DNA from: Thermoplasmatota archaeon
GTDB lineage: Archaea; Thermoplasmatota; Penumbrarchaeia; JANQNL01
Reading direction: 5' to 3'
Assembly (NCBI GenBank): GCA_028279585.1
Contig: JANQNL010000166.1
Coordinates: forward strand, 27-64,026
Length of the DNA: 64,000 nt
This document shows, piece after piece, positions 867 through 46,411 of this stretch; positions within the stretch are counted from its first letter, which is position 1, and each line of letters starts with the position of its first letter. The position numbers were made by a program, and so were the translations under genes. The notes under the pieces are model-generated. The model was not told the DNA's origin. It ran no database searches and worked only from the letters and a program-made list of their open reading frames with translations.

Positions 867-955
867 CCACTTCATAATATGTTCGAACATCGGTCCTAGA
901 GTGAGGTCACATCTGGTCCATACGTTTGAACACAACACCTGTCCGAGGGGTCAGA

Positions 956-5376: not shown

Positions 5377-5784
5377 ATGTCTGCAGACGACATGATACGC
5401 TGCACCAAGTGTGGGCGTCAGGTAGAAGACACCAAGGCCGAGTCGATAATGTGCCGCTATTGTGGGCATGTCTTCAGGCGAATGGATGTCATACGGCAGG
5501 ATGAGGAGGAGCTCAAGGCGAAAATGCTTGTCGAGCTCACCTACACCATGAAGCTTTTCAAGACCTTCAGGAACATAGCGATAGGAGCAGGCATAGCCCT
5601 GATAGTCCTATCTGTAGCGTTCCTCTTTGCTGCCGAAGTCACACCCATTCCCTTCATGCTCATGGGCCTGTTCATCGTAGGCGGTGTTGTGTGGATAATC
5701 ATAGGGGCCGTGTTCGCAAAGAAGTATGCGGACAGTCATAGCAAGCAGTTCGACCTTACAGAAGGAAGGAAGCTGTTGCAGTAG
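5377..5784 (+). CDS. small membrane protein with N-terminal zinc ribbon
   Basis: 135 aa. A zinc ribbon CTKCG..x..CRYCGHVF is followed by two hydrophobic helices (IAIGAGIALIVLSVAFLFAA and FMLMGLFIVGGVVWIIIGAVF). Confidence 0.55.
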   Translation: MSADDMIRCTKCGRQVEDTKAESIMCRYCGHVFRRMDVIRQDEEELKAKMLVELTYTMKLFKTFRNIAIGAGIALIVLSVAFLFAAEVTPIPFMLMGLFIVGGVVWIIIGAVFAKKYADSHSKQFDLTEGRKLLQ

Positions 5785-5785
5785 G

Positions 5786-8700: not shown

Positions 8701-8866
8701 TCCACCACCAGCAACACCGCCACCGGCTGCGGGCACTCCTCCAGCAGCTGCAGGTACACCACCTCCAGCGGCAGGAACCCCTCCGGCTGCTCCACCAGCT
8801 GCTCCTGCTCAGAAACCTCCTGCACCTCCAGCGGGAACACCACCTGCACAGCCACCAAAGCAGTGA
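5786..8866 (+). CDS. large surface protein (type I topology) with Gly-rich N-domain, Ig/PKD-like modules, a C-terminal TM and a Pro/Ala-rich tail
   Basis: ATG 5786 lies directly after the upstream stop and gives the signal peptide MVVTVLAKRLLVLGLVAVMMLVCLGITSS. The ORF-track start at 5726 overlaps the upstream gene. Many N-x-S/T sequons are present, plus a PKD-like ILFDASNSYDPNG. The TM is PLLFLAGLGLFVAVNAIAGVAMLI followed by KRVREK. The tail has (G)TPP(A)AA repeats encoded by imperfect tandem DNA repeats at about 8690-8860. Confidence 0.7.
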   Translation: MVVTVLAKRLLVLGLVAVMMLVCLGITSSDTGTEGLVDTAPATRADELVLDNAQLTVTSNKVYTSITMLNQSQLTIKGTTVLVYGEVVILGTSEFKVEQSTVTLKGGSLIANCAKFKLVDSEIIVKNETTPDGGSKSAGAGEDGYDSSFQVKCNKDNIAFTNSIIRIEGSKGGTGMGVGHGGEGGYASCGIETDDNGLYKISMDDSTIKLTAGKGGDSGSGASDKAGDGGDCYFNIRSFNKVEISNTEINCSAGQSGEKTGQGSYGINGESMEVKIEADDDIIVDNGLDEYSTFWSKGGSYTSDLDIFVEGNSQFKFLSGKSIIMDENKQFENEYYILTNITAKTVYMEAEEEGFLYNVAINNPSGSPKTNGDTINVYWWLYVSVYDNSGQALENADVTVYYASNDQEVDSDKTDSDGLMYMLLKAAVATTTTTQIIYDIEVSTRGITEMRSNRALYTNTLVEFPIKLVSVEFTSIQSQTPAWGMTVGGMCVIRGTASPPPVEDSHISLVTVKIDGTPMKVVQDGEAPDAYSAWHVDWDTTDEAEGMHEIIIWASDGNFNSETSINVTVNQDAVNHLPEIVSVSIPQAPKGELKVSPDSKIYVNGTCTDEDFDSDGITQGKGVSKVVVMIFDQYDFLLHRGETNAQEKTIDTWTFSYRWDVKKKNGDGSLMFDDGTYKVYAFAVDNGNPQLMSLNNSDDSNMEEVIITHIQWPKLIVQYEGDTIGETLTVTTGKGDTSITILFDASNSYDPNGPNYKEGVTGSYSQDLLYYWLIAKQGKDPESQSSTNTNKIITLEYTFEFAAAEEEKETRTTYDITLTIEDAEGLRKTQTFTLVINIIGPDKQAEMPLVAITHMAIPLATPLLFLAGLGLFVAVNAIAGVAMLIKRVREKNTLQKRLKGLEIRKKLRQQQYEKRKQKDQFVDYEAGAKMLEQAGTPDVLKNQPTAADQAAAAQFAADPTEKAASPSQPTGTPPPATPPPAAGTPPAAAGTPPPAAGTPPAAPPAAPAQKPPAPPAGTPPAQPPKQ

Positions 8867-9979: not shown

Positions 9980-12900
9980 TCATTTCCTCTTCTTGCCCTT
10001 TTTGGACTTACCCTTCTTCTTCTTTCCCTTCTTCTTCTTTGGCTTGGGTTCGTCCTCCCAGTCATCGTCGAGGTCGTCATACTCGTCAAGGGAGTCCTCC
10101 TCGAGGTCTGCCATCATCTCGTCCTCTTCGGCAGAGACATTGGGGTCGATGATATCATCATCGAACTCTGCGCCGCAGTGTGGGCACTCGGAGATGGTCT
10201 CTGGGACCAGCTCGCCGCATGCACCGCACTCGACAAGTTCTGTGTTGAGGTCCAGGGCGGAAAGGTCCACTCCATCGACGTTGACGCTTGGTCCTGCAGC
10301 TGCAGGAAGGAGCTTCGTGTTGGTGGAGATGTCGCCCATGGCCCTGATGAGCGCGTCGTAGTCAGGTCCCTCGTCCTCGTCCTCAAGTCCAAGCATCGGC
10401 ATTATCCTGGAGCGTAGCAGCAAGAACACAGAAGCTGCGAAGAGGATTACGAATATCAGAACGAGCAGGACAATGAGAAGGACCTGGAAACCGAAGCTGA
10501 TGCTCTCTCCGCCTGCTCCATCGGTGCTTGTGTTATCCACAGCATCTGCGATTCCATTGTTATCAGCATCAGGGTCCTCATTGGCGTTCTTTGGATTAGT
10601 GCCGTACCTGATCTCCTCAAGATCGGACCATCCATCGTTGTCATCGTCCTCATCAAGGGCATCAGGTATCATGTCCCCATCGAAGTCAGAGGGTTTTGAC
10701 CTGTTGTCAAGTGGATCGGTCGCCAGTTCAAGCTCTGTCGTATCTGACCAGCCATCTCCATCATCGTCGCTGTCAAGGGTGTCTGGGATGCCATCGTTGT
10801 CAGTGTCGACCTCCACCACCTCTGGTTCGATAGTAAAGGTGTAAGTTGCATCCTCGCCGCGCGCCCACGCGCGGTCCCGGACCTCTATGACCAGAGTAAC
10901 GTCGTTGCCGACCCAGAAGCTGATTATCGTAGAGGTTATCTCCTGGTTCTCACCAGAGCCATTACCGACGGTCCACTCCTGTCCGCCCCAAGCTCCATTT
11001 CCGCTTGTCCATCTGAACCTGTAGAATATCTCATCGCCGTCAGGGTCTGTTGCGGTCACGAGTGCAAGAATCTTGCTTGTGGACTCTGTGGGCTGTTCGG
11101 GGTCGATACCGATGGAGGTAATGACCGGTGCAGAGTTCTGGACCTTGATGGAGTCCGAGTTGCGGGAGACACCGATGTCCGAGTCCTCGTATGGAGTGAC
11201 GACGACCCTTATCTCATCGCCTTTGACGAAGTTGTCACTTGTGAGGGTCTTGCCCGTGGCACCTGGTATGTCAAGCCACTCATCCTCCTGATGGATCTGC
11301 CACTGGTAGAGCAGACCCTTGGTATCTGAGACGTCCTTGTCGATGTCATACCAACCGCTTACGCCTGCCTCGAGGTTCGTGTTGGTGGTGACGCCTGAAG
11401 CTGGAGTGATGAATGCCGAGTCGATGACCGGAACGGAGTTACCAATTACGATGGTCTCTGTTGTTACCACATTGGAATACTTGGACCCAGCATCGTCTGT
11501 GACCTTGAAGACACAGTACCATTCCTCACCCTTCTTATGCGTTCCAATGGTGGCTTGTGTGAAATTGGTGATGGTGCCATCCGCGGTCTTCTGGAACCAC
11601 AAGTATGTCTCGACACCTACAGCATCCTCTTCCACATCGTAGTAATCATATCTGATGGTCATATCCATACCAGCCTTTGGATTGCTGGGATAGATAGTGA
11701 CATTTGATATCACTGGGGCATCGTTGACAGATATTATCGTGACATCGATCTTCACAGTTGTGGAGTCACCTTCATCATCGGTGGCCTTGACCCAGATCTT
11801 ACCTGTTCCGAACTGGTTCCTGTCCGGTATGAGGTCATACCCAAGGTCTGTCCTTTGGGATACTGTGAAATCTCCCTCTGTTGTAATGGTTATAGTTATG
11901 TTACCGGTATCTGTGAAAGCATTGTAAGGATAGAAGGCCCCATAGACCGGTATGTCCTCGTTCGTAGTGATGAGCGTTGGAAGAACTCCATCATTGATCT
12001 TTGGACCAAGGTTATAGACGAACACAACGCTCTTGCTCCTGTCCATGGTAACGTTCTTCTCAAGGTACTTGTCCTCAGCTGACAGGCTCTGTGCATCGGT
12101 CTGGACGAAGTGTAGCCTTGTCCCGTAGTCGAAGCTGGTGCCCGTCTGTCTATACTCCTTACATGGGATAAAGAGAACAGAGCTTCCGGTCACCTTGCGC
12201 TTGGAAAGAACGGTTGCGTCCTTTCCATCCTTTACAAGGAGGTAGGTGTTGTCCATTGCATCACCATACTCGTCCTGGATGTGCACATCAAGATACCAAT
12301 ACCTCTCGATGTAGGAAGCACCGTCCAATACCTCGCACTTGTCCTTGTCGAGAGAGGTGTTATAGACAAAGGCCCTTCCACCCTCAACATCAAGATCTGT
12401 TACCGTGTTGCTGAGTGTGCTGTTGTAGATCCTTGCATGGTTCTCGACCAGGATGACGCCCTGATCGTTCATGGTTATCGTAGAACCGGACATGGTAAGA
12501 TTGTTATTGCTCGCATCGTCTGCTGATTCGAAGCTGTAGATGGCCTGGTTGCAGTTCTTTATGGTGGTGTCTTCGACCTCCATCCTGGTCTCCTTTGCAT
12601 AGATCCCATAGAACTGCATATCATCTATCGTTGTCTCCTCGATCTCTGCCAAAGCAGAATCCAGGTAAAGACCTGACGTTCCACCAGATATCACTGTGTC
12701 GGTCACTGTAACGATACAGGCACCGAGGACTGGTTTGACGTAGATGGATGAGGCATCTGTGATGGTGGAGTGCGAGATGGCCAGGGTTGTTCCGCTCTGT
12801 GAGAACGTGAAGTCATCCTTGCCTTCTGCAACATCCATTGTCACACTGTCGAAGGTTATAGAGCTCGATACCTCTCCGAACACACCGTTCCCTGATTCCA

Positions 12901-15900
12901 GGAACTCGATGTTCGCGTTGGAAAGGACAATGGACCGGCCGTTGGTGACAGTGATCGTCCCATCGAACCTTCTGATGGTGTTGCTTGTAACAACGTTCTT
13001 GTAGACCTCCCAGTCAACAAAGATGCCCTCGCCGCCATCAAGGTCGTAAAGACCGTTGTAGGATAGGTCATTGTTGTTGATGTAGGCAGTCCATACGTTC
13101 GATGTTGGGTTCGCATCATAGTGGATGTAGACCCCGTTCTTCGTGTTCGTAGAGACGATGTTGTCTGTGAACTCCACTATCGTTGTATCGTTGAACTGGC
13201 CCCGGTTCACTACAAGGTCATCACGCTGTGCCCAGTCATCATATAGGTTCACACCATGACGGAGATTATTGGTCATGGACGAACCGATGAAGCTTGCCAC
13301 GGATGTCCTATAGAGCCTCACACCGTCGTTGGCGTTCTGGTTGGTGACAACCGCGTTCAGGACTACATCCTCACCGCCCTCGATGAGTATTCCGTCATCG
13401 AAGTTGGTGTCACAGGTGGTCTCCTTGATGATGGCTCCGACAGGGTTTTTGAGGTAGATACCCGCGTCCTTGTTTGAGTTTGCATAGCAGTCCTCCAAGG
13501 TCCCTGTGAAGTTGTAGAGGCGCATCCCCTCATGGTCGTTGGAGTTTGCGCGGATGTAATAGAACTCGGTGATCGGTCCATCGAGGGTCGGGCCCTCATC
13601 GTGGACGAATATGCCGAGCTCGTTGGAGTCGAAGGTGGACAGCATGTTCCCGGATGTGCCAGATACCCATGCTTCTGCGCCGTCCTTGATGTATAGGCCG
13701 ATCCTTCCATTGTTGTTGGCTGAGTTCTGATAGAGGTATGTGGATGAATGCTTCTCAAGTCTTATTCCATCAACTTCGCTGTTCATCACGGTATTTCCAG
13801 TGAGTTGCATATATTGGTATGAAGATGCTCTGATCCCAGCTCCAGTTGAGATCCTCTGTGCGGCCATATCAACATCATTGTTCGATATCGTGCCTCTGAC
13901 GTATCCCATGGCATTGATACCATTGTTTCCACAGCCTGATATGTCATTTCCATCCACAGTGACATGGACAGGATCGAGGAAATGCTTAAGAGAGATACCA
14001 TCGAGATAGCTATCAATGATGGTATTATCACTTATGATGGGTGAATATCCGCTGTAAAGATAAATCCCAAAGTTGCATTCCTGAATAGTATTTGATGATA
14101 CCAATGCAGAACCCTTTTGGATGTGTATCCCAGAATCGGTTCCATTGTAACCCTTTATCGAGTTCCCAATGGCCTGGACCCCAGTGGACCGCAGGTTATT
14201 ACTATCGATCCATATGCCACACCAACCACCATCATCGACATCCTCTATCGTATTGGATGAAACCACTGCAGAGGAGCCATCGATAACTATACCATACCGA
14301 TCAGGGTCAGGATTGTCCTCATGCCCGATCTCATTGTTGGATGCCACGGTCTTCATTGAATCTTCGACCAAGATGCCAGTTGTCACGTTGTAGATCTTGT
14401 TGTTCTCTATCCTTACAACACCTGGAGCTGTGCAGACAAAGCCATCAGCATCCAGTGAGGTCGTCGTCGTCTCTGCATTCTCATGGACCAGGCTCGTACG
14501 TCCTGCAAGCACTTCGTACCTGATGTCATCGATGAACCATCCTCCATCGGGTCCATCATTGTAGTATGCAAATCGTATCATGACCTCTTTTCCCCAATAT
14601 GGGTCCATATCGATGCCCGTGAGCACCCAGCCACCTGAATCTCCGGCAAATCCATCGCCGCCGATCAGTTCAATGCTTCCAAAATTATAGACCGTGGAGC
14701 TGTTATCAAGGATATTCCAGGTCAGACCGAGATCTGTTGAGATCTCCACCCGGGCGCCTCCACAATTGTACCAATGGTAGAAGGTCAGGTTCTCACCTGC
14801 GCTAATGAAGCTTGTGTTCAGCTCAAGATATGAGGCTTCAGTTCCAGTGTTCGCATCGAGGTCTGTTCCCCAACAATAGTTACCAGAATGTGCTCCAGTA
14901 GGACCGCCGCTTGTAGATGTGGGTGTTCCTATCTCCCATGAATCAGCTGTATGTGTTGAATAGTAATCTATGGCCCTTCCATGGACCCACATGTTCTTGA
15001 AGTTGTTGAACTCTGAATCGTCGAGATTTGAATACTCAAGGTCATGGACTGCGTTGTTCACGGAGTTATATTCAACGACACGGATCTCATCGATGAGCCA
15101 ACCATAATCGTTACCAGCTCCAAACGTCTGGTATTCAAAGGTGATGTTCACGGTATCGTTGTTCCACTGCCTCAGGTCGATTATGTTCTCTCTCCAAGAT
15201 GAGGAGGAGCCAAGGGTCTTCAATGTATTTGGGAAGGTCTGGCCACCATCGGTTGACAACTTAACGTCACCGTTTGCATCGGTAAGGTCATCACAATGGT
15301 CCCAGTAATACAGGATAGGGTTCTTGGTTCCCTTGATATTGACGGAGAACTCCAATTCACTGTCGACACTGTCACCAATGCCGGAGAACCATGTTCCAGT
15401 TCCATGAACGGTCTCAAAGGACCCACCATCAACATACAGACCGATGTCCCTCGTTCCCTTAATGCTATTTCCAACGATCTCAAGTGGCTTACCTCTGTAA
15501 TCATTAGCAGAATGCACCATGACACCTGGGTGTAGGTCCAACAGCGGATCGGTGAAAGTATTGTTCGCTATCCTTGGGAAAGAATTGAAGACTCTGATAT
15601 GTTCTCCCGATTCCTCGAACATACAGGATTCCACAGTGATATTGCTATCATACATCATGATCTCGACTCGATGGAAGGTCGAGGCCATGGCATGTAACGT
15701 TCCCCCATTGTGGACATTGATATCGAACTTGACACTGTTCATGCCCATGAGAACTGATGCATCATTGGTTGTCGCGCTGTTGTTGTCATTGTCCCATATG
15801 AACAGCTGGCCACCATCTTGTACCTGAATGCCTGGACCTGTTGCATATATCACCAGTGTCACATTCTCGAGTATCAGAGTTCCCTGAACGTTCAGGTTAC

Positions 15901-17080
15901 TGCAAAAGATGACAGTGTCATTATAGTGCTCAACTGTGGAGGCAGATACGGTCCATGCGGTCTTGTTGTGACCTACATTCACGATCTGGTTGTTCGTGAC
16001 CTCTTTGTTCTCCACATAGTCTGTAGAGTTGAACTGGAGCTGGTGAATGCCAATACCCTTTGTGAACGGTCCTGAGTAGCTTGTCCATTCGGTCTCATGG
16101 GCCTCCTTGTACTCGGTGTCGTTCAATCCAGCATAGTTCGAATGACCCGCATCATCTGTTGCGAAGATGAAGGTCTGTGTAGTATCTGTGATGTAATCGT
16201 ATCCCTTGACGTTCACATGGCTCTGTCCGAACCCAAGGGTCGTGGTCGGAGCGTCGTTGTCCATGTAGAAGTCCAGCTTGTGAACGTCGGTGTTCCCAGC
16301 CACATCATAGGCAGTGATATTGATGCTCGTATCCTCATTGACGTTAGGGTCAATGGTATATGTGGATGAGGTTCCTGTCCACCATGTAGATGATGCATCA
16401 TCTGTGTACGCTGCTGGTGAGTCGCCGAAGACGTTAGCCTCGAACTCGACCTTTTCCTTGCCACTGTCTGCGTCTGCCCAGTCGCCAGTGATGTTGAGGG
16501 TGTATGTGCCACCGTCATCGTCACTGTAGATGAAATCATTACCGCCAGCATCGTAGACGGAGAACATCTTGCCGCCCATGTAGCCGACGTTGACCTCAAT
16601 GTTGGAAAGTGACGGATCCACCGCATCGATGGTGAGGCTGGCATAGTTCTCGAACAAGCCTGTGGAGTTGTCCACCCATACGTCGTCACCATCAGCTGCC
16701 TCGATCTCCCTGTTAGGTCCATCTGTGGAACCAGCTATCGAGAAGTTACCGTGATAGTAGCTTGGTGCTACCCAGTCGCAGGTAAGTGCGAACCCTGTCC
16801 CATCGGATGTTGAGGATATGTCCACAACGACCGTGTCGCCTGATGATCCTGCATCTCCAGTTACATTGAGGTAGATGGTCGCTCCAGGTTTGGCCCATGA
16901 GAGTTCCTGGGTCAGAGCCTCGTCATAATAGATCTTGGCCGAATGTGAATCGTTCTGGGCCGCAGTTGTGGAATTTGCAGCAAGTATCACCATCACTGCT
17001 ATCAGTAATATCCCGATACCAATGGGTAAAAGCATTCTTCCATCAGCGATAGTTCTTTTATTGTCATCCTTTGTGACCAT
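9980..17080 (-). CDS. giant (2366 aa) surface protein: signal anchor, beta-sandwich modules, long right-handed beta-helix (PbH1/NosD-like) region, cadherin-like modules, TSP3 repeats, TM, and a cytoplasmic zinc ribbon plus poly-Lys tail
   Basis: GGAGGG lies upstream of ATG 17080. The N-terminal anchor is MLLPIGIGILLIAVMVILAA. Dozens of beta-helix turns are visible (e.g. NTIQECNFGIYLYSGYSPIISDNTIIDSYLDGISL). VNDAPVISNV junctions are present. TSP3 motifs include DTDNDGIPDTLDSDDDGDGWSD and DEDDDNDGWSD. The TM is VLLIVLLVLIFVILFAASVFLLL. The tail carries ECGACGELVPETISECPHCGAEF and ends KPKKKKGKKKKGKSKKGKKRK. Confidence 0.8.
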   Translation of the reverse strand: MVTKDDNKRTIADGRMLLPIGIGILLIAVMVILAANSTTAAQNDSHSAKIYYDEALTQELSWAKPGATIYLNVTGDAGSSGDTVVVDISSTSDGTGFALTCDWVAPSYYHGNFSIAGSTDGPNREIEAADGDDVWVDNSTGLFENYASLTIDAVDPSLSNIEVNVGYMGGKMFSVYDAGGNDFIYSDDDGGTYTLNITGDWADADSGKEKVEFEANVFGDSPAAYTDDASSTWWTGTSSTYTIDPNVNEDTSINITAYDVAGNTDVHKLDFYMDNDAPTTTLGFGQSHVNVKGYDYITDTTQTFIFATDDAGHSNYAGLNDTEYKEAHETEWTSYSGPFTKGIGIHQLQFNSTDYVENKEVTNNQIVNVGHNKTAWTVSASTVEHYNDTVIFCSNLNVQGTLILENVTLVIYATGPGIQVQDGGQLFIWDNDNNSATTNDASVLMGMNSVKFDINVHNGGTLHAMASTFHRVEIMMYDSNITVESCMFEESGEHIRVFNSFPRIANNTFTDPLLDLHPGVMVHSANDYRGKPLEIVGNSIKGTRDIGLYVDGGSFETVHGTGTWFSGIGDSVDSELEFSVNIKGTKNPILYYWDHCDDLTDANGDVKLSTDGGQTFPNTLKTLGSSSSWRENIIDLRQWNNDTVNITFEYQTFGAGNDYGWLIDEIRVVEYNSVNNAVHDLEYSNLDDSEFNNFKNMWVHGRAIDYYSTHTADSWEIGTPTSTSGGPTGAHSGNYCWGTDLDANTGTEASYLELNTSFISAGENLTFYHWYNCGGARVEISTDLGLTWNILDNSSTVYNFGSIELIGGDGFAGDSGGWVLTGIDMDPYWGKEVMIRFAYYNDGPDGGWFIDDIRYEVLAGRTSLVHENAETTTTSLDADGFVCTAPGVVRIENNKIYNVTTGILVEDSMKTVASNNEIGHEDNPDPDRYGIVIDGSSAVVSSNTIEDVDDGGWCGIWIDSNNLRSTGVQAIGNSIKGYNGTDSGIHIQKGSALVSSNTIQECNFGIYLYSGYSPIISDNTIIDSYLDGISLKHFLDPVHVTVDGNDISGCGNNGINAMGYVRGTISNNDVDMAAQRISTGAGIRASSYQYMQLTGNTVMNSEVDGIRLEKHSSTYLYQNSANNNGRIGLYIKDGAEAWVSGTSGNMLSTFDSNELGIFVHDEGPTLDGPITEFYYIRANSNDHEGMRLYNFTGTLEDCYANSNKDAGIYLKNPVGAIIKETTCDTNFDDGILIEGGEDVVLNAVVTNQNANDGVRLYRTSVASFIGSSMTNNLRHGVNLYDDWAQRDDLVVNRGQFNDTTIVEFTDNIVSTNTKNGVYIHYDANPTSNVWTAYINNNDLSYNGLYDLDGGEGIFVDWEVYKNVVTSNTIRRFDGTITVTNGRSIVLSNANIEFLESGNGVFGEVSSSITFDSVTMDVAEGKDDFTFSQSGTTLAISHSTITDASSIYVKPVLGACIVTVTDTVISGGTSGLYLDSALAEIEETTIDDMQFYGIYAKETRMEVEDTTIKNCNQAIYSFESADDASNNNLTMSGSTITMNDQGVILVENHARIYNSTLSNTVTDLDVEGGRAFVYNTSLDKDKCEVLDGASYIERYWYLDVHIQDEYGDAMDNTYLLVKDGKDATVLSKRKVTGSSVLFIPCKEYRQTGTSFDYGTRLHFVQTDAQSLSAEDKYLEKNVTMDRSKSVVFVYNLGPKINDGVLPTLITTNEDIPVYGAFYPYNAFTDTGNITITITTEGDFTVSQRTDLGYDLIPDRNQFGTGKIWVKATDDEGDSTTVKIDVTIISVNDAPVISNVTIYPSNPKAGMDMTIRYDYYDVEEDAVGVETYLWFQKTADGTITNFTQATIGTHKKGEEWYCVFKVTDDAGSKYSNVVTTETIVIGNSVPVIDSAFITPASGVTTNTNLEAGVSGWYDIDKDVSDTKGLLYQWQIHQEDEWLDIPGATGKTLTSDNFVKGDEIRVVVTPYEDSDIGVSRNSDSIKVQNSAPVITSIGIDPEQPTESTSKILALVTATDPDGDEIFYRFRWTSGNGAWGGQEWTVGNGSGENQEITSTIISFWVGNDVTLVIEVRDRAWARGEDATYTFTIEPEVVEVDTDNDGIPDTLDSDDDGDGWSDTTELELATDPLDNRSKPSDFDGDMIPDALDEDDDNDGWSDLEEIRYGTNPKNANEDPDADNNGIADAVDNTSTDGAGGESISFGFQVLLIVLLVLIFVILFAASVFLLLRSRIMPMLGLEDEDEGPDYDALIRAMGDISTNTKLLPAAAGPSVNVDGVDLSALDLNTELVECGACGELVPETISECPHCGAEFDDDIIDPNVSAEEDEMMADLEEDSLDEYDDLDDDWEDEPKPKKKKGKKKKGKSKKGKKRK

Positions 17081-17562: not shown

Positions 17563-20500
17563 ATGTCTCGAACAGGCCTTTTTTCAACTGTCGACGGTAA
17601 GGTATCGAAAGTACTTCCGTTGTTAGCAGTCCTGATACTTGCTCTATCTGGTCTTCTAGTGGCCATTAGCGCCCAGGAGCCAGATGCACGAGCCAATTAC
17701 AATGCGGAGATCTCCATACTAGTTGTGGACAACACCGAACAGTCCGAGAACTGGGTGGATGAACCATACAAGGACGGTGATGCATCCGGTGGAGGAGGAA
17801 GTTCCACGAACAATGGTGGCAAGGTCTCCGAGGGCACCCTGCTCTCGTATTACCTCACGGCCTTGGAGAACGCTGGATATACCAACGTCAGCTACATGCA
17901 GACGTTCAGTCAAAGGACCTGGTCCTACGATTATCCTTCCTACTCTGACCTGAAGGATTACAACGTTGTCATCTGGTTCACAGGATCGGACTACCCCAAC
18001 GTCAATGAGGAGGACCCATACGACGATGCTTTGGCCCCTTACCTAGACAATGGCGGAAGGCTCTTCATCACCGGCTGTGAGATAGCCGAGGAGCTTGCAA
18101 AGACAACCTCGGACACAGACTTTTTCACAGACTACATGAAGTTCACTTACTCCAAATCCCTTTCCAACCAGGACGTTACCTGGGCAGCAGGTTCACCCAT
18201 CCAGACATCACAGAACCTGTCGATCAATGGTGAGGCAGAGTCTGCCAATAATAACAACAGGATCTCCATTTTATTGCCAGCAGATGCAGCTTGCGAGCCT
18301 ATCCTCCAGATAGGAACAGACACTGTTGGTGTGGCAACATCACATGGTAAGTACAGAGCGGTCATGTTCGGCTTCAACTTCGAAGCGATCTATGGCAGCA
18401 CTGACAGGACCAACACCATGACCGCGGTCCTCGAGTGGCTCTGGGGCATCCCAAGGATCGAGCATACCCCCCTCGGCGACACAGAAGATGTTGAGAACCC
18501 ATACAAAATCACTGCCGATATCAGGGATGCGACTCTGGACACTAGCTCCCTGGCATTGTTCTACAAGACCATAAATTCCTCCAAGGCCGAAAGCGCCTTC
18601 ACCAAGGTTGACCTCAATAGCACCGGCGAGAACACATATGAGGCTTATATCCCAGCTCAAGAGAACGGCACAGACGTCTACTACTTCCTTCGCGCGCTCA
18701 ACCAAAAGGACGGTAATGCTACCCATCCCCTTGGTGTGGATGCGAACAAGACCGCAACCTGGCATACGTTCCATGCAGGGCCGGACAACAAGGCTCCGAT
18801 CATCACCCACACACCCCCGATAGATACAGTGTTGACTGTGGCAAGGACCATCACATGCTACGTGACCGACAACCTTGGAGTGGACCCGAACGGTGTCGAG
18901 CTCATGTATCGCTTTGGAAGCGCTGGTAACTTCACTGACGCGAACATGACACACAAGGGTGCTGGTAAGTTCACTGGCACCATTCCTGGAGCATCCCAAG
19001 GTACCTCCGTTCAGTACAAGATCCAGGCAAGCGATGCTTCTGCAGCTGCAAACACCGTCGTCTCTCCTGTAAATGGTACATACAGCTATGATATTCTATA
19101 CAGCCAGATCCTTGTGGTAAACGACATCGCCTCCAGCTACTACGACAAAGATGGGGATGTGACCGACCTCGAGGACGACCTGGCAGATGTCGACTACGTC
19201 CTTTGGGAGACCGAGGATGACGGCTTCCCAGCTACAACCGATCTTCAGCATTTCTCAACGGTCTTTTGGTGCAGAGGCACCGGCGAGGCCAATGACGAGC
19301 GAGTGGATATGTGGGAGGCCATCATGGATGCTGGAACCAACCTGGTCCTTTCTGGGACTTCCGTTTCAGAGACTTGGTCGAGCTCCCAGACAGAGACCTT
19401 CCTGGAGGACTACTTCCACTGTGAGTCCGGCACCTACTATTGGGGCGATGAGATCTATGGCACCGATGGCGACATCATAGGTGACTCTCTGGACCTTTCC
19501 AGCTACGAGGGTTGGTTCAGCGGTACCGGTGTGGATATCCTCGACAGCTCCGCCAACCAGTGCTTCTGGGCACAGGGTGACGTCTGGTTCGAGGATGGTG
19601 GTCGTGAAGGAGGGGATGATAACTCCGCCTCTGTGGGAGTTTGGGTCGACGAATCTGGTCGCAAAGGACTTCTAATGACCTTCAGGCTCGAGCATGTCCT
19701 CGAATACGGTGATGGAGAGGACCTTGTTCCAAGGATCCTGACCTGGCTCGATGCTCCATCCATTTCGCACACACCGCTCAAGGATACCGAGGACACAACA
19801 GGCCCATACGCTGTGACAGCAACCATCACAGACGATGACCTGGACACGTCCAACATCAAGATGTCCTACAGCACTGACAACTCCACATACACCTCCGTGG
19901 ACATGACGGTGACCACAGGAAACACATACACTGCCAACATCCCTGGTGTTAGCGATGGCACATGGGTGAGATACTACATCTCAGCCAAGGACCTTGCTGG
20001 CCATGAGGGAAGGGCTCCTGCAGCTTCAAAGGCATACACCACCTACAACACGTTCTATGTCGGGGTTGACAAGATACCTCCAAAGATCGTTCATGATAGG
20101 TTGCTGCATACCACATCCACTTCTGCCTACCCGGTTGAAGCAGGTATCACTGACTCACTTGGACTGGACCCATCCAAGGTCAAGGTCCATTACAACCTGG
20201 ACAACAGCGCCACCTACTCCGAGGTCACGATGACCATTAAGGAAGGTGACACGTACGCAGCCGAGATCCCAGGTCAATCCATCGGTTCCACGGTCTACTA
20301 CTACATCACAGCTGCCGACCAGTCCCTGGCTGCGAACGTAGGTAGGAACCCTGCCGAGGGTGTCTATAGCTTCCAGGTCCTGGAGTCCATCCCGGTCCTG
20401 CTCCTTCACGAGGAGGACGATATCTGGTATGGCTTCGACGACATGGAGAAGGAAGAGACTCAGGAGGAGGATGAGATAGATGTCTACACCGAGCTCCTGA

Positions 20501-23500
20501 CAAAGATGGAGGTCCCATACACCTACTACTCCACCTCCGAAAAGGGTGGGATCCCATCCTCCAGAGAACTTGACGATTACGACGTTGTCATCTATGTAAC
20601 TGGCCTTGCATGGTATGCAGAGGACCTCCAGGATTACATGGACGATGGCGGCAATGTGTTCATTGCATCCGAGGTCGCACACACCGGATTCGAGTGGCTT
20701 GCCCCTGACTTCCTTGACGATTACATGCATTGCGAACTATCCCAGAACACAGCCGAGGACTCTCTCATCACTGGCGTTGATGGGGACTTCATCGGTGACG
20801 GCCTAACCTTCGACCTCTTGGGCGATGGTATCATGGGCTTCACAGGACCGCAGATGCTTGAGGTGGATGATAACCAGGCCACAGAGATCTTCGAGTACCC
20901 GACCGGAACTGCCGGGGTCAAGGTCGATGATGAGGATGGGTTCAAGATGGTCTACCTGACCTTCTCCCTATCCGCAGTACCACTGGCCCACAGGGAGGAG
21001 GTGCTTGGCCGGTCGCTGGACTGGCTGCTTGGAATGCCTGGCATCGATCATGTTCCGCTCAAGGACACAGAGGATACAACTGGACCATACGAGGTCAATG
21101 CCACCGTGTCCGGTGAGAGCATCGTTGCGTCGAACGTTAAGATGCATTACTCCATCGACGGTGGAAGCTTTGTCGAGCTTGCCATGACCGAGAGCGATGG
21201 CAAGTATAGGGCGAGCATCCCCGGACAAGCTCATGGTACAGACATAAGTTATTATATCTCAGTAGAGGACGGCGATGGAAACAAGGCAACATCCCCAAGG
21301 GGTGCTGACCAGAACAACCTTGGAAGCCTTCACAACTTCGAGGTCGGTGAGGACTCCACACCACCAACGCTTGTTCATTCCCCGCTATCAGATAACATGC
21401 GCAGAGAGTATTACGAGGCAGAGGTACAGATGGGAGACAATCTCGGGCTGGACCTGGAGGCCACAAAGCTCTACTGGAGAGTGGTTGGGGATACCAACTA
21501 CAACGAGTTGACGTTCACTATCGATGACGACGTTAAGGCGGCCGTTCCAGAACATCTCGTGGCTTATCACACATACCTTCCAGGATACGAACTGGACCCA
21601 GGCGATGTCGTGGAATACTACATCGAAGCTGTGGACATGTCCGTGGCCGGGAACAAGGCCAGGTCACCCGAGACAGGCACCCACACATTCGACATCATCG
21701 AGAGGATGGTGCTTGTTGTGGATGATGATGGTCTTAGCGATTCTGAAGAGCCGATAGTAGACGCACTTGCAGAGCTGGACATAGCCTACGCGGTCGTTGA
21801 ACCGACAGCTGCAAAGCCCATTACCGAGGCCTCACTTGTCTCTTACTCCGCGGTCATTTGGACCACAGGAAACTCCTTCTGGCAGACGATCACCGAGGAC
21901 GAGGCGGACGTGTTATCCTACTATCTCGACAATGGTGGGAACCTCCTGATGACCGGTTCCGGCATCGGGCAGGAGGCAGAACAGGGATGGAACCCATGGG
22001 GAGACTGGACCGATGGTGGAGGTGGCGGACCAAGACCTTTGGCCACCAGGGCAGAAGAGGATACCGTAAGCTCATCGTCCGATGCTCCAGCACCAGCTGA
22101 CGATCCAATTACTGAAGAGCTAGTAAAGGATGAACCCCCAAAGGATGAACCTCCGAAGGATGATGACGGTAAGTCCGACCCTGGCATGCCAGAACCTCCA
22201 CCAGATGGTGAGGATGGTGACGATGGCAAGGACGGTTCGGACGGAGATTTCATCGATTGGTATGAGAAGTACCTCCACGCAGAATATGAGAGCTCATCCA
22301 CCTACTCATCCGTCACTGGCGTCGATGATCACGAGCTTACAGATGGAATTAACTTCAAGCTTGAGACCGACGACCTGTTCGGATGGCTGTCATCCGAGGT
22401 CATAGATCCGATCTCCCCTGCGGAGGAAGTGCTCCAGTATTCCAAGGGAAGCACAGCAGGTCTGCGATACAATGGGACCCACAGGGTCATCTACTTCGCC
22501 TTCGACATTGCAGACATCCAGGAGACCAACGCTACAGAGGAGCTCATCGGAAACTGTGTCGAGTGGCTCATGGAAGGTCAGAGCGCATCGGGTGGGAACG
22601 CCCCGCAGCTGACCAAGGGAAGGCACAAGCTCGAGGACTATGGCAAATACAACTTCACGGTCGAATATTCGGATGCCGATAACGACATCCCTTACCCGAT
22701 CCTCCTGGTCATCGATGACGAGGAGTATGAGATGAAGCCTGTGGACTACGATGATAACAACTACATGAACGGCAAGAGATACTTCATCGAGCTCGATCTC
22801 GGACCTGGTGATCATGACTATTACTTCATGACCGAGGGTGCCGAGGACACGGATACCAGGACCGTTAGTGTCGCTGGTGGCGGTTCCGGTCTTACTGGGA
22901 ACACCGGGCTAATGGCCGGTGCGATAGTTGCTGGCATCATCCTACTGTTGATCATTATCGTCGTGGCCATCGTGGTCGTGCTCATCATTCTTCGGAAGAG
23001 GGCTGGTGGTGACAAGGAAGAAGAAGAGGAGGAGGCACCTGAGGAGAAGAAGGAAGAGGCTGAAGTTGCAGAGGGTGACAAGTACAAGCCCAAGCACGAG
23101 CCCGAAGACAAGTTCAAGAGGCCTAAGGGTGCTGATAAGAACTCATCCTTCCTTGCCCAGGAAGAGGCCCCGCTCGAAGCAGACGAGGTCATTGCACCGA
23201 CAGCAGACTCCAAGTATGCCCGAAAGGGTAAGAAGAAGGGCAAGGGAAAGAAGAAGCCTCAGGTGGAAGCTGCCCCTGCTCCAGCAGAGGTGGAAGCTGC
23301 CCCAGAGGTTGAGCTCTTACCTCCGGCCACAGAGACCATGGATGATCCAGCCACGTTGTCGGAAAGGCCTGGTGTGGTAGCAACAGAGACCCTTCCCGCA
23401 GAGGACATCGAGGAAGAAGAGGTCATGGACGGTTCAGAGATGGAAACGTCCCCATGCCCAGAGTGCGGAAGGATGGTCGGCCTCGATTACCTTGACTGTC

Positions 23501-23607
23501 CACACTGTGGAGCAGAGCTCGACGAAGGTCTGGAATGCCCACTGTGTGGTGCACCTGTAGAAGAAGGCGCTGATGGCTGTGAAAGCTGTGGTGCCAAGTT
23601 CGGTTAG
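17563..23607 (+). CDS. giant (2014 aa) surface protein: four tandem supermodules of about 440-465 aa (flavodoxin-fold DUF4350/ThuA-like unit plus Ig-like units), TM, Glu/Lys-rich tail and C-terminal double zinc ribbon
   Basis: GGAGTG lies 6 nt upstream of the ATG. The signal anchor is VLPLLAVLILALSGLLVAISA. Repeated unit signatures are YNVVIWFTG..LDNGGRLFITG, FSTVFWCRG..MDAGTNLVLSG, YDVVIYVTG..MDDGGNVFIAS and YSAVIWTTG..LDNGGNLLMTG. Repeated Ig-like openers are IEHTPLGDTEDVENPY, ISHTPLKDTEDTTGPY and IDHVPLKDTEDTTGPY. The TM is AIVAGIILLLIIIVVAIVVVLIIL followed by RKR. The tail is CPECG..CPHCGAELDEGLECPLCG..CESCGAKFG. Confidence 0.8.
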   Translation: MSRTGLFSTVDGKVSKVLPLLAVLILALSGLLVAISAQEPDARANYNAEISILVVDNTEQSENWVDEPYKDGDASGGGGSSTNNGGKVSEGTLLSYYLTALENAGYTNVSYMQTFSQRTWSYDYPSYSDLKDYNVVIWFTGSDYPNVNEEDPYDDALAPYLDNGGRLFITGCEIAEELAKTTSDTDFFTDYMKFTYSKSLSNQDVTWAAGSPIQTSQNLSINGEAESANNNNRISILLPADAACEPILQIGTDTVGVATSHGKYRAVMFGFNFEAIYGSTDRTNTMTAVLEWLWGIPRIEHTPLGDTEDVENPYKITADIRDATLDTSSLALFYKTINSSKAESAFTKVDLNSTGENTYEAYIPAQENGTDVYYFLRALNQKDGNATHPLGVDANKTATWHTFHAGPDNKAPIITHTPPIDTVLTVARTITCYVTDNLGVDPNGVELMYRFGSAGNFTDANMTHKGAGKFTGTIPGASQGTSVQYKIQASDASAAANTVVSPVNGTYSYDILYSQILVVNDIASSYYDKDGDVTDLEDDLADVDYVLWETEDDGFPATTDLQHFSTVFWCRGTGEANDERVDMWEAIMDAGTNLVLSGTSVSETWSSSQTETFLEDYFHCESGTYYWGDEIYGTDGDIIGDSLDLSSYEGWFSGTGVDILDSSANQCFWAQGDVWFEDGGREGGDDNSASVGVWVDESGRKGLLMTFRLEHVLEYGDGEDLVPRILTWLDAPSISHTPLKDTEDTTGPYAVTATITDDDLDTSNIKMSYSTDNSTYTSVDMTVTTGNTYTANIPGVSDGTWVRYYISAKDLAGHEGRAPAASKAYTTYNTFYVGVDKIPPKIVHDRLLHTTSTSAYPVEAGITDSLGLDPSKVKVHYNLDNSATYSEVTMTIKEGDTYAAEIPGQSIGSTVYYYITAADQSLAANVGRNPAEGVYSFQVLESIPVLLLHEEDDIWYGFDDMEKEETQEEDEIDVYTELLTKMEVPYTYYSTSEKGGIPSSRELDDYDVVIYVTGLAWYAEDLQDYMDDGGNVFIASEVAHTGFEWLAPDFLDDYMHCELSQNTAEDSLITGVDGDFIGDGLTFDLLGDGIMGFTGPQMLEVDDNQATEIFEYPTGTAGVKVDDEDGFKMVYLTFSLSAVPLAHREEVLGRSLDWLLGMPGIDHVPLKDTEDTTGPYEVNATVSGESIVASNVKMHYSIDGGSFVELAMTESDGKYRASIPGQAHGTDISYYISVEDGDGNKATSPRGADQNNLGSLHNFEVGEDSTPPTLVHSPLSDNMRREYYEAEVQMGDNLGLDLEATKLYWRVVGDTNYNELTFTIDDDVKAAVPEHLVAYHTYLPGYELDPGDVVEYYIEAVDMSVAGNKARSPETGTHTFDIIERMVLVVDDDGLSDSEEPIVDALAELDIAYAVVEPTAAKPITEASLVSYSAVIWTTGNSFWQTITEDEADVLSYYLDNGGNLLMTGSGIGQEAEQGWNPWGDWTDGGGGGPRPLATRAEEDTVSSSSDAPAPADDPITEELVKDEPPKDEPPKDDDGKSDPGMPEPPPDGEDGDDGKDGSDGDFIDWYEKYLHAEYESSSTYSSVTGVDDHELTDGINFKLETDDLFGWLSSEVIDPISPAEEVLQYSKGSTAGLRYNGTHRVIYFAFDIADIQETNATEELIGNCVEWLMEGQSASGGNAPQLTKGRHKLEDYGKYNFTVEYSDADNDIPYPILLVIDDEEYEMKPVDYDDNNYMNGKRYFIELDLGPGDHDYYFMTEGAEDTDTRTVSVAGGGSGLTGNTGLMAGAIVAGIILLLIIIVVAIVVVLIILRKRAGGDKEEEEEEAPEEKKEEAEVAEGDKYKPKHEPEDKFKRPKGADKNSSFLAQEEAPLEADEVIAPTADSKYARKGKKKGKGKKKPQVEAAPAPAEVEAAPEVELLPPATETMDDPATLSERPGVVATETLPAEDIEEEEVMDGSEMETSPCPECGRMVGLDYLDCPHCGAELDEGLECPLCGAPVEEGADGCESCGAKFG

Positions 23608-23620
23608 GAGAACTGATACC

Positions 23621-46200: not shown

Positions 46201-46411
46201 GTGGTTCACCTCATTCGGAATTACCATGTCAGGCTACCGCTATATAGTAACCTTGAGATAAGCCATAATATTATGCTATATAAGATTTGCTGCTGTTATC
46301 TAGGTACTTTAGGCTAGTATATATATAATCATAATAAAGGACCAGTGGTCGGCCGTACCGATGTATGGACCACGAGTCTAATGATTGTTAACATGTTGGA
46401 TGGCTAAACAT

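What the first reader, a model, noticed from the sequence alone, without database searches (positions are those of the whole stretch)
23020..23607. Cytoplasmic tails of giant surface proteins end in zinc ribbons, with the same ribbon flavour in two soluble proteins
After the single TM and a basic stop-transfer, three ectodomain giants carry C-terminal zinc ribbons. 17563..23607 has CPECG..CPHCGAELDEG..CPLCG..CESCG (about 23455-23604). 9980..17080 has ECGACG..CPHCGAEFDDD (about 10165-10235, minus strand). 42811..46200 has CPDCGQPGRFIEEYNANWCDACQKYIQ (42814-42894, minus strand). The last variant (CxxC-x9-13-aromatic-aromatic-CxxC-x-(K/Y)Y) recurs at the C-terminus of the soluble five-ribbon protein (CSKCGAPLKYVKQYKRYYCHSCKKYD, about 1738-1816). 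It also recurs in 57759..58676 (CPQCCSSTAYIPGRKAYYCPKCRGYL). The positive-inside rule predicts that all these ribbons are cytoplasmic. That implies a transmembrane link from the surface layer to an intracellular partner (nucleic acid, cytoskeleton or the soluble ribbon proteins), which is unusual for prokaryotic adhesins.
Basis: partly seen in the sequence, partly recalled or inferred. Interest (0 to 1): 0.65.

Follow-up and report, generated by a model that had tools for sequence, protein, structure and literature searches.

The report
Zinc-ribbon tails on archaeal surface giants
Three of eight giant membrane-anchored surface proteins of an uncultured archaeon end, on the inside of the cell, in small conserved zinc-binding modules of two recognisable types, which probably dock an unknown internal partner; the parts are ordinary and only this arrangement appears undescribed.

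Summary
The window is archaeal (thermosome, RaSEA) and encodes eight type-I giants: signal or anchor, ectodomain of 870-2200 aa, one C-terminal TM helix, a K/R stop-transfer and a low-complexity tail of 78-204 aa. Three tails carry CxxC..CxxC ribbons. There are 11 such motifs in 34 proteins, against 0.1 expected.

There are two real ribbon subtypes:
- Generic DZR/Zn_Ribbon_1 ribbons, in the 17563 and 9980 tails.
- A longer "RY..Y.RYW-C" ribbon, in the 42811 tail and in the 297-aa and 314-aa soluble proteins. An HMM built from an unrelated bacterial repeat protein picks out exactly these three.

Charge bias, glycosylation sequons and extracellular domain families all put the ribbons in the cytoplasm. 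The only orthologue found (31% identical) keeps all eight Cys and their spacing, while the linker has diverged.

The architecture is not unique. A metagenome scan found an archaeal surface-protein family whose TM-proximal double ribbon is 63-94% identical, against 22-46% for its ectodomain. Ribbon-TM-ectodomain proteins were described in bacteria in 2012.

Function is inferred only. The most likely role is a tethered protein-docking module, by analogy with haloarchaeal CdpC, whose C-terminal ribbon binds FtsZ1. I rate this a new variant of a known kind, of moderate interest.

The parts
17563..23607 (+). Giant type-I surface protein (2014 aa) with repeated ThuA/DUF4159-like and CBM_56-like modules. 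First gene of a long MoxR-associated gene string.
   Evidence: The identical protein occurs in an independent Logan assembly. Orthologue P0002 lies in a syntenic locus, L001.
22909..22992 (+). Single C-terminal TM helix of the 17563 giant, followed by the stop-transfer RKRAGGDK (nt 22993-23016).
   Evidence: Hydropathy 4.09. There are 4 K/R in the 15 residues after the helix and none in the 15 before.
23017..23454 (+). Low-complexity acidic/Pro/Ala linker of the cytoplasmic tail, with a poly-Lys patch KYARKGKKKGKGKKK at nt 23212-23256.
   Evidence: The linker is only 22% identical to the orthologue, which nevertheless also has a Lys patch.
23455..23592 (+). Double zinc ribbon (two CxxC-x10-CxxC units) at the extreme C-terminus of the 17563 giant.
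   Evidence: Pfam DZR 25.5 bits (cut-off 27.3) and Zn_Ribbon_1 24.3 bits (cut-off 25). All 8 Cys and their spacing are kept in P0002. AlphaFold2 mean pLDDT is 75 with small hairpins.
9980..17080 (-). Giant type-I surface protein (2366 aa) with beta-helix/NosD, MAM-like and TSP3 modules.
10415..10495 (-). C-terminal TM helix of the 9980 giant.
10154..10237 (-). Single DZR-type ribbon LVECGACGELVPETISECPHCGAEFDDD in the cytoplasmic tail.
   Evidence: It scores 38.4 bits against an HMM of the first ribbon of the L020-L053 archaeal tail module. Retrieval of that family was partly seeded by this sequence.
9983..10045 (-). C-terminal poly-Lys patch KPKKKKGKKKKGKSKKGKKRK of the 9980 tail.
42811..46227 (-). 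Giant type-I surface protein (1138 aa) with PPC, Big_9, cadherin-like and PKD modules. TM helix at nt 43285-43368, then a 159-aa Pro/Ala/Glu-rich tail.
   Evidence: The word-indexed search found no homologue other than itself.
42814..42894 (-). 'YW-type' zinc ribbon CPDCGQPGRFIEEYNANWCDACQKYIQ at the extreme C-terminus.
   Evidence: It scores 37.8 bits (E 6e-11) against the HMM of P0028 repeats. AlphaFold2 pLDDT is about 92 and shows a three-stranded ribbon.
926..1819 (+). Soluble five-ribbon protein (297 aa; database aa). Ribbons at nt 968-1021, 1313-1381, 1484-1534 and 1598-1663, and a YW-type ribbon at nt 1739-1816.
   Evidence: The last ribbon scores 24.8 bits against the YW HMM.
57759..58703 (-). 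Soluble 314-aa protein (database aa). It has a coiled-coil N-terminus, a DZR-type ribbon (nt 58329-58382), a YW-type ribbon (nt 58086-58163), an acidic region and the C-terminal basic amphipathic segment KKLFGNLLRKKK (nt 57762-57812).
   Evidence: (18.3 bits).
5377..5784 (+). Small protein (135 aa) with an N-terminal ribbon (nt 5401-5463) and two TM helices, overlapping the start of giant 5726..8866.

Best explanation
Shown. The features are real Cys4 zinc-ribbon modules at the cytoplasmic ends of long, disordered C-terminal tails. They sit on three type-I-anchored giant surface proteins of an uncultured archaeon, probably Thermoplasmatota.

There are two subtypes. One is the generic DZR/Zn_Ribbon_1 short-hairpin ribbon, in the 17563 and 9980 tails. 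The other is a longer CPxCG-x3-RY-x3-Y-x-RYW-CxxC-xxY ribbon, in the 42811 tail and in two soluble proteins.

The ribbons are under purifying selection while the linkers drift.

Inferred. Each ribbon acts as a small folded docking module on a flexible tether 100-150 aa long. It binds a cytoplasmic protein: a cytoskeletal, divisome or scaffold component, or a product of the same operon such as MoxR or DUF58. This would position, cluster or immobilise the giant ectoprotein, or report its state inwards.

The layout of membrane anchor, disordered linker and C-terminal C4 ribbon is that of haloarchaeal CdpC, whose C-terminal ribbon binds FtsZ1. The partner here is unknown.
For: - Presence and non-randomness.
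- Cytoplasmic side: charge bias, sequon distribution; extracellular domain families in the N-terminal parts.
- Selection, orthologue P0002: identity is 35% in the ectodomain, 22% in the linker and 46% in the ribbon region. All 8 Cys and their spacing are retained.
- Selection, independent archaeal family (L020-L053; archaeal neighbours): the TM-proximal double ribbon plus 'AFWDWWKRQ' core is 63-94% identical, against 22-46% for the ectodomain. The cytoplasmic ribbon module is therefore the most constrained part of such proteins.
- Subtypes.
- Fold.
- Precedent for a membrane-tethered C-terminal ribbon binding a cytoskeletal protein through a long disordered linker: CdpC, bioRxiv 10.64898/2026.07.16.738847. 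That paper reports distant multi-ribbon relatives in all classes of Thermoplasmatota.
- The 17563 tail ribbon region is net acidic by inspection of the sequence. That fits protein binding better than nucleic-acid binding.
Against: - No partner was identified and no interaction was tested.
- Only 3 of 8 giants have ribbons, so the link is not a general property of the coat.
- Only one orthologue could be found for one giant. The 42811 giant had no detectable homologue, and the 9980 giant was never searched.
- The ribbons do not match CdpC's Pfam family, DUF7093. It did not appear in the Pfam output at E<=0.1 or E<=1.
- DZR-type ribbons are generic and have been proposed to bind nucleic acids (PMC3355149).
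- The tails also carry poly-Lys patches, which could bind DNA, RNA or lipid instead.
- The net charge of the ribbon region is not conserved in P0002.
Confidence: 0.45

Rival explanations
1. Membrane-tethered nucleic-acid binding. The ribbons together with the poly-Lys patches bind DNA or RNA. The giant would act as a one-component transmembrane regulator, possibly after intramembrane proteolysis, or it would tether nucleoid, mRNA or ribosomes to the membrane.
For: - Zinc ribbons often bind nucleic acids. The same idea was proposed for bacterial DZR-TM-YARHG proteins (PMC3355149).
- Lys-rich patches occur in four tails and in the orthologue.
- The best full-length PDB sequence match of the YW ribbon is the rRNA-binding ribbon of eS31/S27a (E 0.009).
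- The ribbons of the 297-aa soluble protein are strongly basic.
Against: - The tail ribbon regions of 17563 and 9980 are strongly acidic (sequence).
- The eS31 match is below any curated threshold. Foldseek gives only generic ribbons, none at E<=0.001.
- No site-2 protease or rhomboid was recognised in the window.
- Adhesin-like ectodomains of 1000-2200 aa are odd sensors.
Confidence: 0.2
2. Membrane-proximal structural or biogenesis role. The folded Zn knot and the Lys patches lie on the inner leaflet, binding anionic archaeal lipids or each other. They would stabilise the C-terminus against proteolysis, fix the N-out/C-in topology, or drive lateral clustering of the giants, without a dedicated soluble partner.
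For: - Poly-Lys patches and K/R stop-transfers are the commonest tail feature, present in most of the 8 giants.
- In the L020-L053 family the ribbon follows the TM helix within about 8 residues.
- Ribbons are small autonomous folds.
Against: - In the window the ribbons sit 60-150 residues from the TM helix at the end of acidic linkers, so they are not membrane-proximal.
- Five giants do without ribbons.
- The very high conservation of the surface residues of the L020-type module suggests a specific ligand.
Confidence: 0.15
3. Evolutionarily labile decoration. Generic zinc ribbons are abundant in this genome (6-7 of 34 window proteins). They have been appended to some tails by domain shuffling, with no specific function.
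For: - Only 3 of 8 tails have ribbons.
- Distant ectodomain homologues in Thermoplasmata MAGs (L010, L013) and in bacteria lack them.
- Ribbon number varies between tails: one, one and two.
Against: - Complete Cys and spacing conservation at 31% overall identity, with a diverged linker.
- The cytoplasmic ribbon module is the best-conserved region of a related architectural family.
Confidence: 0.1

Closest known systems
Pfam DZR (PF12773) / Zn_Ribbon_1 (PF13240) / Zn_ribbon_3 (PF13248) ribbons next to a TM helix, e.g. bacterial DZR-TM-YARHG proteins (Coggill & Bateman 2012, PMC3355149)
   Same: Same ribbon type (CPxCG-x10-CPxCG, single or in pairs). It lies on the cytoplasmic side of a single-pass membrane protein whose bulk is extracellular. 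The function has never been demonstrated.
   Different: In the window the ribbons are C-terminal (type-I orientation) and sit at the end of 60-150-aa disordered linkers. The proteins are 1100-2400-aa archaeal surface giants. The window scores fall just below Pfam's cut-offs. There is no YARHG domain.
CdpC (HVO_0399, DUF7093) of Haloferax volcanii, membrane anchor of FtsZ1 (bioRxiv 10.64898/2026.07.16.738847)
   Same: [quoted passage not shown] In CdpC only the ribbons and the anchor are conserved. Distant multi-ribbon relatives are reported in Thermoplasmatota.
   Different: CdpC is anchored by an N-terminal amphipathic helix, not a TM helix, and has no ectodomain. No DUF7093 match appeared for any window ribbon. 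FtsZ binding was not tested here.
L020-L053 family of uncultured-archaeal surface proteins
   Same: Both have a signal or anchor, a sequon-rich ectodomain, one TM helix and a cytoplasmic DZR-type ribbon. The 9980 ribbon shares the LVECGxCGELxPE..CPxCGAEF signature (38.4 bits).
   Different: That family has the double ribbon immediately after the TM helix, a conserved AFWDWWKRQ segment and a third, terminal ribbon. The window giants lack these and have unrelated ectodomains.
eS31 / S27a-type ribosomal zinc ribbon
   Same: The YW subtype shares the CxxC-x14-CxxC spacing and the aromatic/Arg pattern before the second knuckle ([22 protein letters not shown] against CPxCGxxxRYIxQYxRYWCxxC).
   Different: The similarity is weak (E 0.009 against PDB; Pfam PF01599 is below its cut-off). 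There is no ubiquitin or ribosomal context. This is a resemblance only.
Archaeal S-layer and surface proteins with a C-terminal TM anchor (e.g. Pyrobaculum PySLP, bioRxiv 10.64898/2026.08.21.746120)
   Same: Both are giant Ig/PKD-rich ectodomains with an N-terminal signal peptide, a single C-terminal TM anchor and a basic juxtamembrane segment.
   Different: The tail described for PySLP homologues is an extreme C-terminal, highly basic stretch directly after the TM helix, with no zinc site mentioned. The tails here are 78-204 aa, and three carry zinc ribbons.

Membership tests
Pfam DZR (PF12773) / Zn_Ribbon_1 (PF13240) | Tandem CxxC-x(9-12)-CxxC knuckle pairs (Cys4 ribbon, single or doubled) | tested here: met
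   The 17563 tail has two units with x10 spacing and the 9980 tail has one unit. The Cys are conserved in P0002.
Pfam DZR (PF12773) / Zn_Ribbon_1 (PF13240) | HMM score at or above the curated gathering cut-off | tested here: inconclusive
   For the 17563 tail, DZR scores 25.5 bits against a cut-off of 27.3, and Zn_Ribbon_1 scores 24.3 against 25. The 9980 tail gives only DUF7575 at E 0.025. Related L020-type tails score 35-67 bits, above the cut-off.
YW-type ribbon (repeat unit of P0028) | Match to a profile of CPxCG-x3-RY-x3-Y-x-RYW-CxxC-xxY built from sequences outside the window | tested here: met
   Scores are 37.8, 24.8 and 18.3 bits for the three ribbons. All other ribbons in the six-frame window score 8.6 bits or less. 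P0028 was itself found using the 314-aa protein, so the third match is not independent.
CdpC / DUF7093 | Sequence membership in DUF7093 | tested here: not met
   No DUF7093 entry appears in the Pfam scans of the six ribbon proteins at E<=0.1, nor of the isolated YW ribbons at E<=1.
CdpC / DUF7093 | Membrane anchor, long disordered linker and C-terminal C4 ribbon | tested here: met
   This holds by architecture only. The anchor is a TM helix rather than an amphipathic helix, and the low-complexity linkers are 60-150 aa.
CdpC / DUF7093 | The C-terminal ribbon binds FtsZ1 and localises to midcell | not testable with these tools
   This needs pull-down or imaging. There is no FtsZ gene in the window.
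eS31/S27a ribosomal ribbon (PF01599) | HMM score at or above the cut-off | tested here: not met
   P0028 scores 18.2 bits against a cut-off of 22.3, and the window ribbons are not listed. The PDB profile match has E 0.009.
Bacterial DZR-TM-ectodomain proteins (proposed membrane-tethered regulators) | Cytoplasmic DZR, a single TM helix and an extracellular domain | tested here: met
   The orientation is inverted, with the ribbon C-terminal.
Bacterial DZR-TM-ectodomain proteins (proposed membrane-tethered regulators) | DNA binding or a transcriptional output | not testable with these tools
   This is only a hypothesis even in the source paper.
L020-L053 archaeal tail module | Double ribbon within about 8 residues of the TM helix, an AFWDWWKRQ segment and a terminal third ribbon | tested here: not met
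   Only the first ribbon of the module is matched by the 9980 tail (38.4 bits, HMM positions 3-33). There is no WW segment, second ribbon or terminal ribbon.

The most novel reading that the evidence does not exclude
The tail ribbons are docking sites for the cell's own cytoskeleton or division machinery (FtsZ/CetZ-like filaments, or CdpC-like multi-ribbon adaptors such as the 297-aa and 314-aa proteins). A Thermoplasmatota-type archaeon would then couple giant adhesins through the membrane to an internal scaffold, an integrin-like arrangement. The L020-type family would represent the same principle across several archaeal lineages.
Probability: 0.15. Interest if true: 0.8.

Novelty: new variant of a known kind. 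Interest (0 to 1): 0.45.

Why it matters
Archaeal surface proteins with a C-terminal membrane anchor are generally described as having only a short basic stub inside the cell. Here, and in a further family recovered from metagenomes, the most conserved part of such proteins is a cytoplasmic zinc-ribbon module. That points to a specific intracellular ligand.

If the ligand is cytoskeletal, as for the CdpC ribbon that binds FtsZ1, this would be a direct physical coupling between the cell coat and internal scaffolds in archaea. It would also give a handle for finding partners: tail peptides about 50 aa long.

If the ribbons bind nucleic acid, these proteins would be very large membrane-tethered regulators.

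Either way, the finding gives a concrete hypothesis for generic 'zinc ribbon domain-containing' membrane proteins whose function has not been demonstrated.

Tried and rejected
- A concatenated query of the 9980 and 42811 giants timed out. As a result, orthologues of the 9980 giant were never searched.
- The 42811 giant returned only itself. Its low-complexity words probably saturated the candidate list.
- The 297-aa protein returned only itself and P0026, an Hsp70 C-terminus fused to ribbons.
- The exhaustive HMMER search with the 314-aa protein gave only itself, P0028 and P0029.
- The genome scan with the 17563/P0002 alignment found only distant ectodomain homologues. Their tails lack ribbons or are replaced by bacterial C-terminal beta-rich ends. 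The window's own species was not found.
- The genes upstream in L001 are not orthologues of the 9980 giant.
- The look-up of P0024 to obtain the NCBI record failed, so the organism is inferred only. The best PDB thermosome match is Thermoplasma, and the nearest archaeal ectodomain relatives are Thermoplasmata MAGs.
- Foldseek of the YW ribbon model gave only generic zinc ribbons, none at E<=0.001.
- I considered and rejected an assembly or frameshift fusion artefact. The same fused architecture is present in an independent Logan assembly and in the orthologue.
- I considered and rejected an extracellular location for the ribbons. The positive-inside bias, the absence of sequons and the Cys4 Zn sites all argue against it.
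- Literature searches for zinc-ribbon tails on archaeal surface or S-layer proteins found nothing direct.

Full report
**What is in the window**

The 64-kb window is archaeal. It encodes a thermosome subunit (62431-63933, minus strand) and the archaeosine radical-SAM protein RaSEA (3980-5038). The thermosome's best solved-structure match is the Thermoplasma acidophilum beta subunit. The nearest archaeal relatives of one giant's ectodomain come from Thermoplasmata MAGs. A Thermoplasmatota origin is therefore likely but not established.

Mechanical ORF listing and a hydropathy scan show eight giant proteins with the same plan. Each has an N-terminal signal peptide or anchor, an ectodomain of 870-2200 aa, one very hydrophobic C-terminal helix, a K/R cluster and a low-complexity tail of 78-204 aa. 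Their coordinates are:
- 5726-8866 (+)
- 9980-17080 (-)
- 17563-23607 (+)
- 23573-27757 (+)
- 30180-36350 (+)
- 42811-46227 (-)
- 49656-52625 (-)
- 52862-57601 (+)

The ectodomains carry extracellular families: beta-helix/NosD, MAM-like, TSP3, PKD, CARDB, FG-GAP, PPC, Big, CarboxypepD_reg, transglutaminase and a PETase-like hydrolase.

**Checking the observation**

Three of the eight tails carry CxxC..CxxC ribbons:
- two units at the very end of the 17563 giant (nt 23455-23592);
- one unit in the 9980 giant (nt 10154-10237);
- one unit at the very end of the 42811 giant (nt 42814-42894).

Ribbons also occur in three other products: the soluble 297-aa protein (five ribbons), the soluble 314-aa protein (two ribbons), and a 135-aa protein with one ribbon and two TM helices at 5377-5784.

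In 34 window proteins there are 11 such motifs. Within-protein shuffles give a mean of 0.10 and a maximum of 2. The other five tails contain no Cys.

The fused architecture is not an assembly artefact. The identical 2014-aa protein is present in an independent Logan assembly, and the orthologue has the same layout.

**Topology**

No dedicated predictor was available, so three independent sequence properties were used.
- Each C-terminal helix is followed by 2-6 K/R within 15 residues and preceded by none.
- N-glycosylation sequons occur at 0.8-3.2 per 100 aa in the N-terminal parts. They are absent from six of the eight tails, and the other two tails have one each.
- The N-terminal parts consist of families known from extracellular proteins.

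Cys4 zinc sites also fit the reducing cytoplasm; this last point rests on established knowledge. The cytoplasmic placement is well supported but remains an inference.

**Are the ribbons one family?**

No. There are two subtypes.

The 17563 and 9980 ribbons are the generic short-hairpin kind. For the 17563 tail, Pfam DZR scores 25.5 bits (cut-off 27.3) and Zn_Ribbon_1 scores 24.3 bits (cut-off 25).

The exhaustive search with the 314-aa protein found P0028. P0028 is a 766-aa protein on a bacterial contig (sigma-70 and ScpA neighbours) and consists of ten repeats of CPxCG-x3-RY-x3-Y-x-RYW-CxxC-xxY.

An HMM built only from those repeats was run on the six-frame translation of the window. It hits exactly three ribbons:
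- the 42811 tail, 37.8 bits, E 6e-11;
- the last ribbon of the 297-aa protein, 24.8 bits;
- the second ribbon of the 314-aa protein, 18.3 bits.

No other ribbon scores above 8.6 bits. No Pfam family captures this subtype above its cut-off.

AlphaFold2 models the subtype confidently as a three-stranded ribbon, with pLDDT about 92 over the ribbon. Foldseek returns only generic zinc ribbons. The best full-length sequence match among solved structures is the eS31/S27a ribosomal ribbon, but only weakly (E 0.009).

**Conservation**

The 17563 giant has one full-length orthologue, P0002. It is 1993 aa and 31% identical, and comes from an ENA metagenome. Its locus L001 is syntenic with the following FG-GAP/CARDB and TSP3 genes.

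Identity by region is as follows:

| Region | Identity to P0002 |
|---|---|
| Ectodomain | 35% |
| Tail linker | 22% |
| Ribbon region | 46% |

All eight Cys and their spacing are retained. P0002 also keeps a Lys-rich patch in its tail, at a different position.

More distant ectodomain homologues lack ribbons. These include Thermoplasmata MAG loci L010 and L013, and bacterial proteins with C-terminal beta-rich ends.

No homologue of the 42811 giant was found. The 9980 giant could not be searched, because the combined query timed out.

**The architecture elsewhere**

I scanned metagenome contigs with an alignment of the DZR tails and recovered 61 loci. The ORFs carrying the matches fall into several layouts:
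- Eleven have the same layout as the window, one of them truncated at its N-terminus. These proteins are 970-1365 aa with an N-terminal anchor and a sequon-rich ectodomain with no Pfam match. They have one C-terminal TM helix and then, within about eight residues, LVECGECGELIPE..CPKCGAEFE..VRCSRCSSTIPA..CPECGAQL. After that come a conserved AFWDWWKRQ segment, a low-complexity stretch and a terminal ribbon, KPCPNCGKEIPPEYLVCPFCGAVTQ.
- Others have several N-terminal ribbons, a TM helix and an ectodomain of about 900 aa (L045, L057).
- Others are small ribbon-plus-TM proteins.

These are archaeal. L053 is flanked by the RFC large subunit and an archaeal-type AlaRS, L045 by Kae1, and L041 by ApgM. 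Their tails score 35-67 bits on DZR/Zn_Ribbon_1, above the cut-off.

Within this family the cytoplasmic core is 63-94% identical, while the ectodomain is 22-46% identical. The inside is therefore the most constrained part of the protein.

The 9980 ribbon matches the first ribbon of this module at 38.4 bits. The retrieval pattern was partly derived from the 9980 ribbon, so this is not fully independent. The 9980 tail lacks the rest of the module.

**Literature**

Searches for zinc-ribbon tails on archaeal surface or S-layer proteins found nothing direct. Three papers bear on the question.
- Coggill and Bateman (PMC3355149) described 73 bacterial proteins with paired N-terminal ribbons (PF12773, PF13240, PF13248), a TM helix and an extracellular YARHG domain. 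They proposed membrane-tethered transcription factors.
- A 2026 preprint (10.64898/2026.07.16.738847) shows that Haloferax CdpC (HVO_0399, DUF7093) has two zinc ribbons joined by a 243-aa disordered linker. Its N-terminal domain binds the membrane through an amphipathic helix. Its C-terminal C4 ribbon binds FtsZ1, and zinc ligation is required for that binding. The authors report distant multi-ribbon relatives in all classes of Thermoplasmatota.
- A description of the Pyrobaculum giant S-layer protein (10.64898/2026.08.21.746120) notes only an extreme C-terminal, highly basic cytoplasmic tail directly after the TM helix, and does not mention zinc.

**How it most likely works**

Shown: cytoplasmic Cys4 ribbons of two subtypes, selectively maintained, at the ends of long, poorly conserved, low-complexity tethers.

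Inferred: they are docking modules for a cytoplasmic ligand. I favour a protein ligand (confidence about 0.45 for the whole statement) for three reasons:
- The layout of anchor, disordered linker and C-terminal C4 ribbon is that of CdpC.
- The ribbon regions of the 17563 and 9980 tails are strongly acidic.
- Conservation in the L020-type module extends well beyond the metal ligands.

Candidate partners are cytoskeletal or divisome proteins, the soluble ribbon proteins, and the cytoplasmic products of the same gene string. For the 17563 giant those are MoxR AAA_3 (37743-38993) and DUF58 (38983-40302).

The rivals, all detailed in the Rival explanations section, are:
- nucleic-acid binding or a membrane-tethered regulator (0.2);
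- a lipid-proximal structural or biogenesis role (0.15);
- functionless decoration (0.1).

No CdpC-family (DUF7093) match exists for any window ribbon. CdpC is therefore a working analogy, not a family assignment.

**Verdict**

The domains are known and generic, and ribbon-TM-ectodomain proteins have been noted before. The new elements are the C-terminal placement on disordered tails of giant archaeal surface proteins, the YW subtype, and the finding that the cytoplasmic ribbon module is the most conserved part of a related archaeal family. I rate this a new variant of a known kind, with interest 0.45.

Noticed in passing
window 60998-62125 (-): A bacterial-type queuine tRNA-guanine transglycosylase sits in an archaeal contig that also encodes RaSEA and a thermosome. 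It scores 417 bits on the TIGR00430 equivalog (cut-off 306.75) but only 134 bits on the archaeal TgtA model (cut-off 350). This is possibly a lateral acquisition or an unusual archaeosine pathway.
   Followed up: no
window 9983-10045, 23212-23256, 27683-27736, 36285-36338: Poly-lysine 'KKGKGKKK' patches, with 8-11 K/R in 15 residues, occur in the cytoplasmic tails of four giants, two of which have no ribbon. Orthologue P0002 also has one, at a different tail position. The ligand is unknown; it could be lipid or nucleic acid.
   Followed up: partly
window 57762-57812 (-): The 314-aa two-ribbon protein ends in KPKKRKKLFGNLLRKKK. This short basic amphipathic segment has a hydrophobic moment of 0.49-0.72, against 0.27 for the E. 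coli MinD membrane-targeting sequence by the same measure. With its coiled coil and acidic linker, the protein has a CdpC-like logic of ribbons plus a peripheral membrane anchor.
   Followed up: partly
window 17563-42601 (+): One same-strand gene string has overlapping or abutting stops and starts. It encodes four surface giants or large surface proteins, then DUF4350, MoxR AAA_3, DUF58, a 6-TM protein, a CAP-domain protein and DUF1848. The transglutaminase giant (30180-36350) has a DUF4129 domain in its cytoplasmic tail. The first three to four genes are syntenic in L001.
   Followed up: partly
L020, L026, L033, L037, L039, L041-L044, L051, L053 (match coordinates): An apparently undescribed family of archaeal surface proteins. 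Its cytoplasmic tail comprises a double ribbon, an AFWDWWKRQ segment and a terminal ribbon. The tail core is 63-94% identical across lineages of 57-72% GC, while the ectodomain is 22-46% identical.
   Followed up: partly
P0026 (ENA, 473 aa); window 1313-1381: An Hsp70 C-terminal fragment is fused to three copies of a ribbon (IPCPKCK..ITIKCPKCG..GTLK). This ribbon matches the second ribbon (CxC..CxxC) of the 297-aa window protein at 64% identity.
   Followed up: no
L078 4881-7181 (P0028): A bacterial 766-aa protein is made of ten YW-type ribbons separated by acidic linkers. It is encoded immediately upstream of ScpA and a DHH phosphoesterase.
   Followed up: no
window 5377-5784 (+): A small protein with an N-terminal ribbon and two TM helices overlaps the start of the giant at 5726-8866. 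This is another membrane-anchored cytoplasmic ribbon in the same neighbourhood.
   Followed up: no
window 23573-23607: The longest ORF of the next giant (ATG at 23573) overlaps the last 35 nt of the ribbon-coding end of the 17563 gene. The true start may be a downstream Met.
   Followed up: no
window 49245-49640 (-): A 131-aa ribbon-helix-helix protein (RHH_1) lies between the PKD/PETase-like giant and the CysD/CysN-like pair. RHH proteins CdrS and CdrL regulate division in haloarchaea, and CdrL carries a DZR domain (PMC7439475). No link was tested.
   Followed up: no
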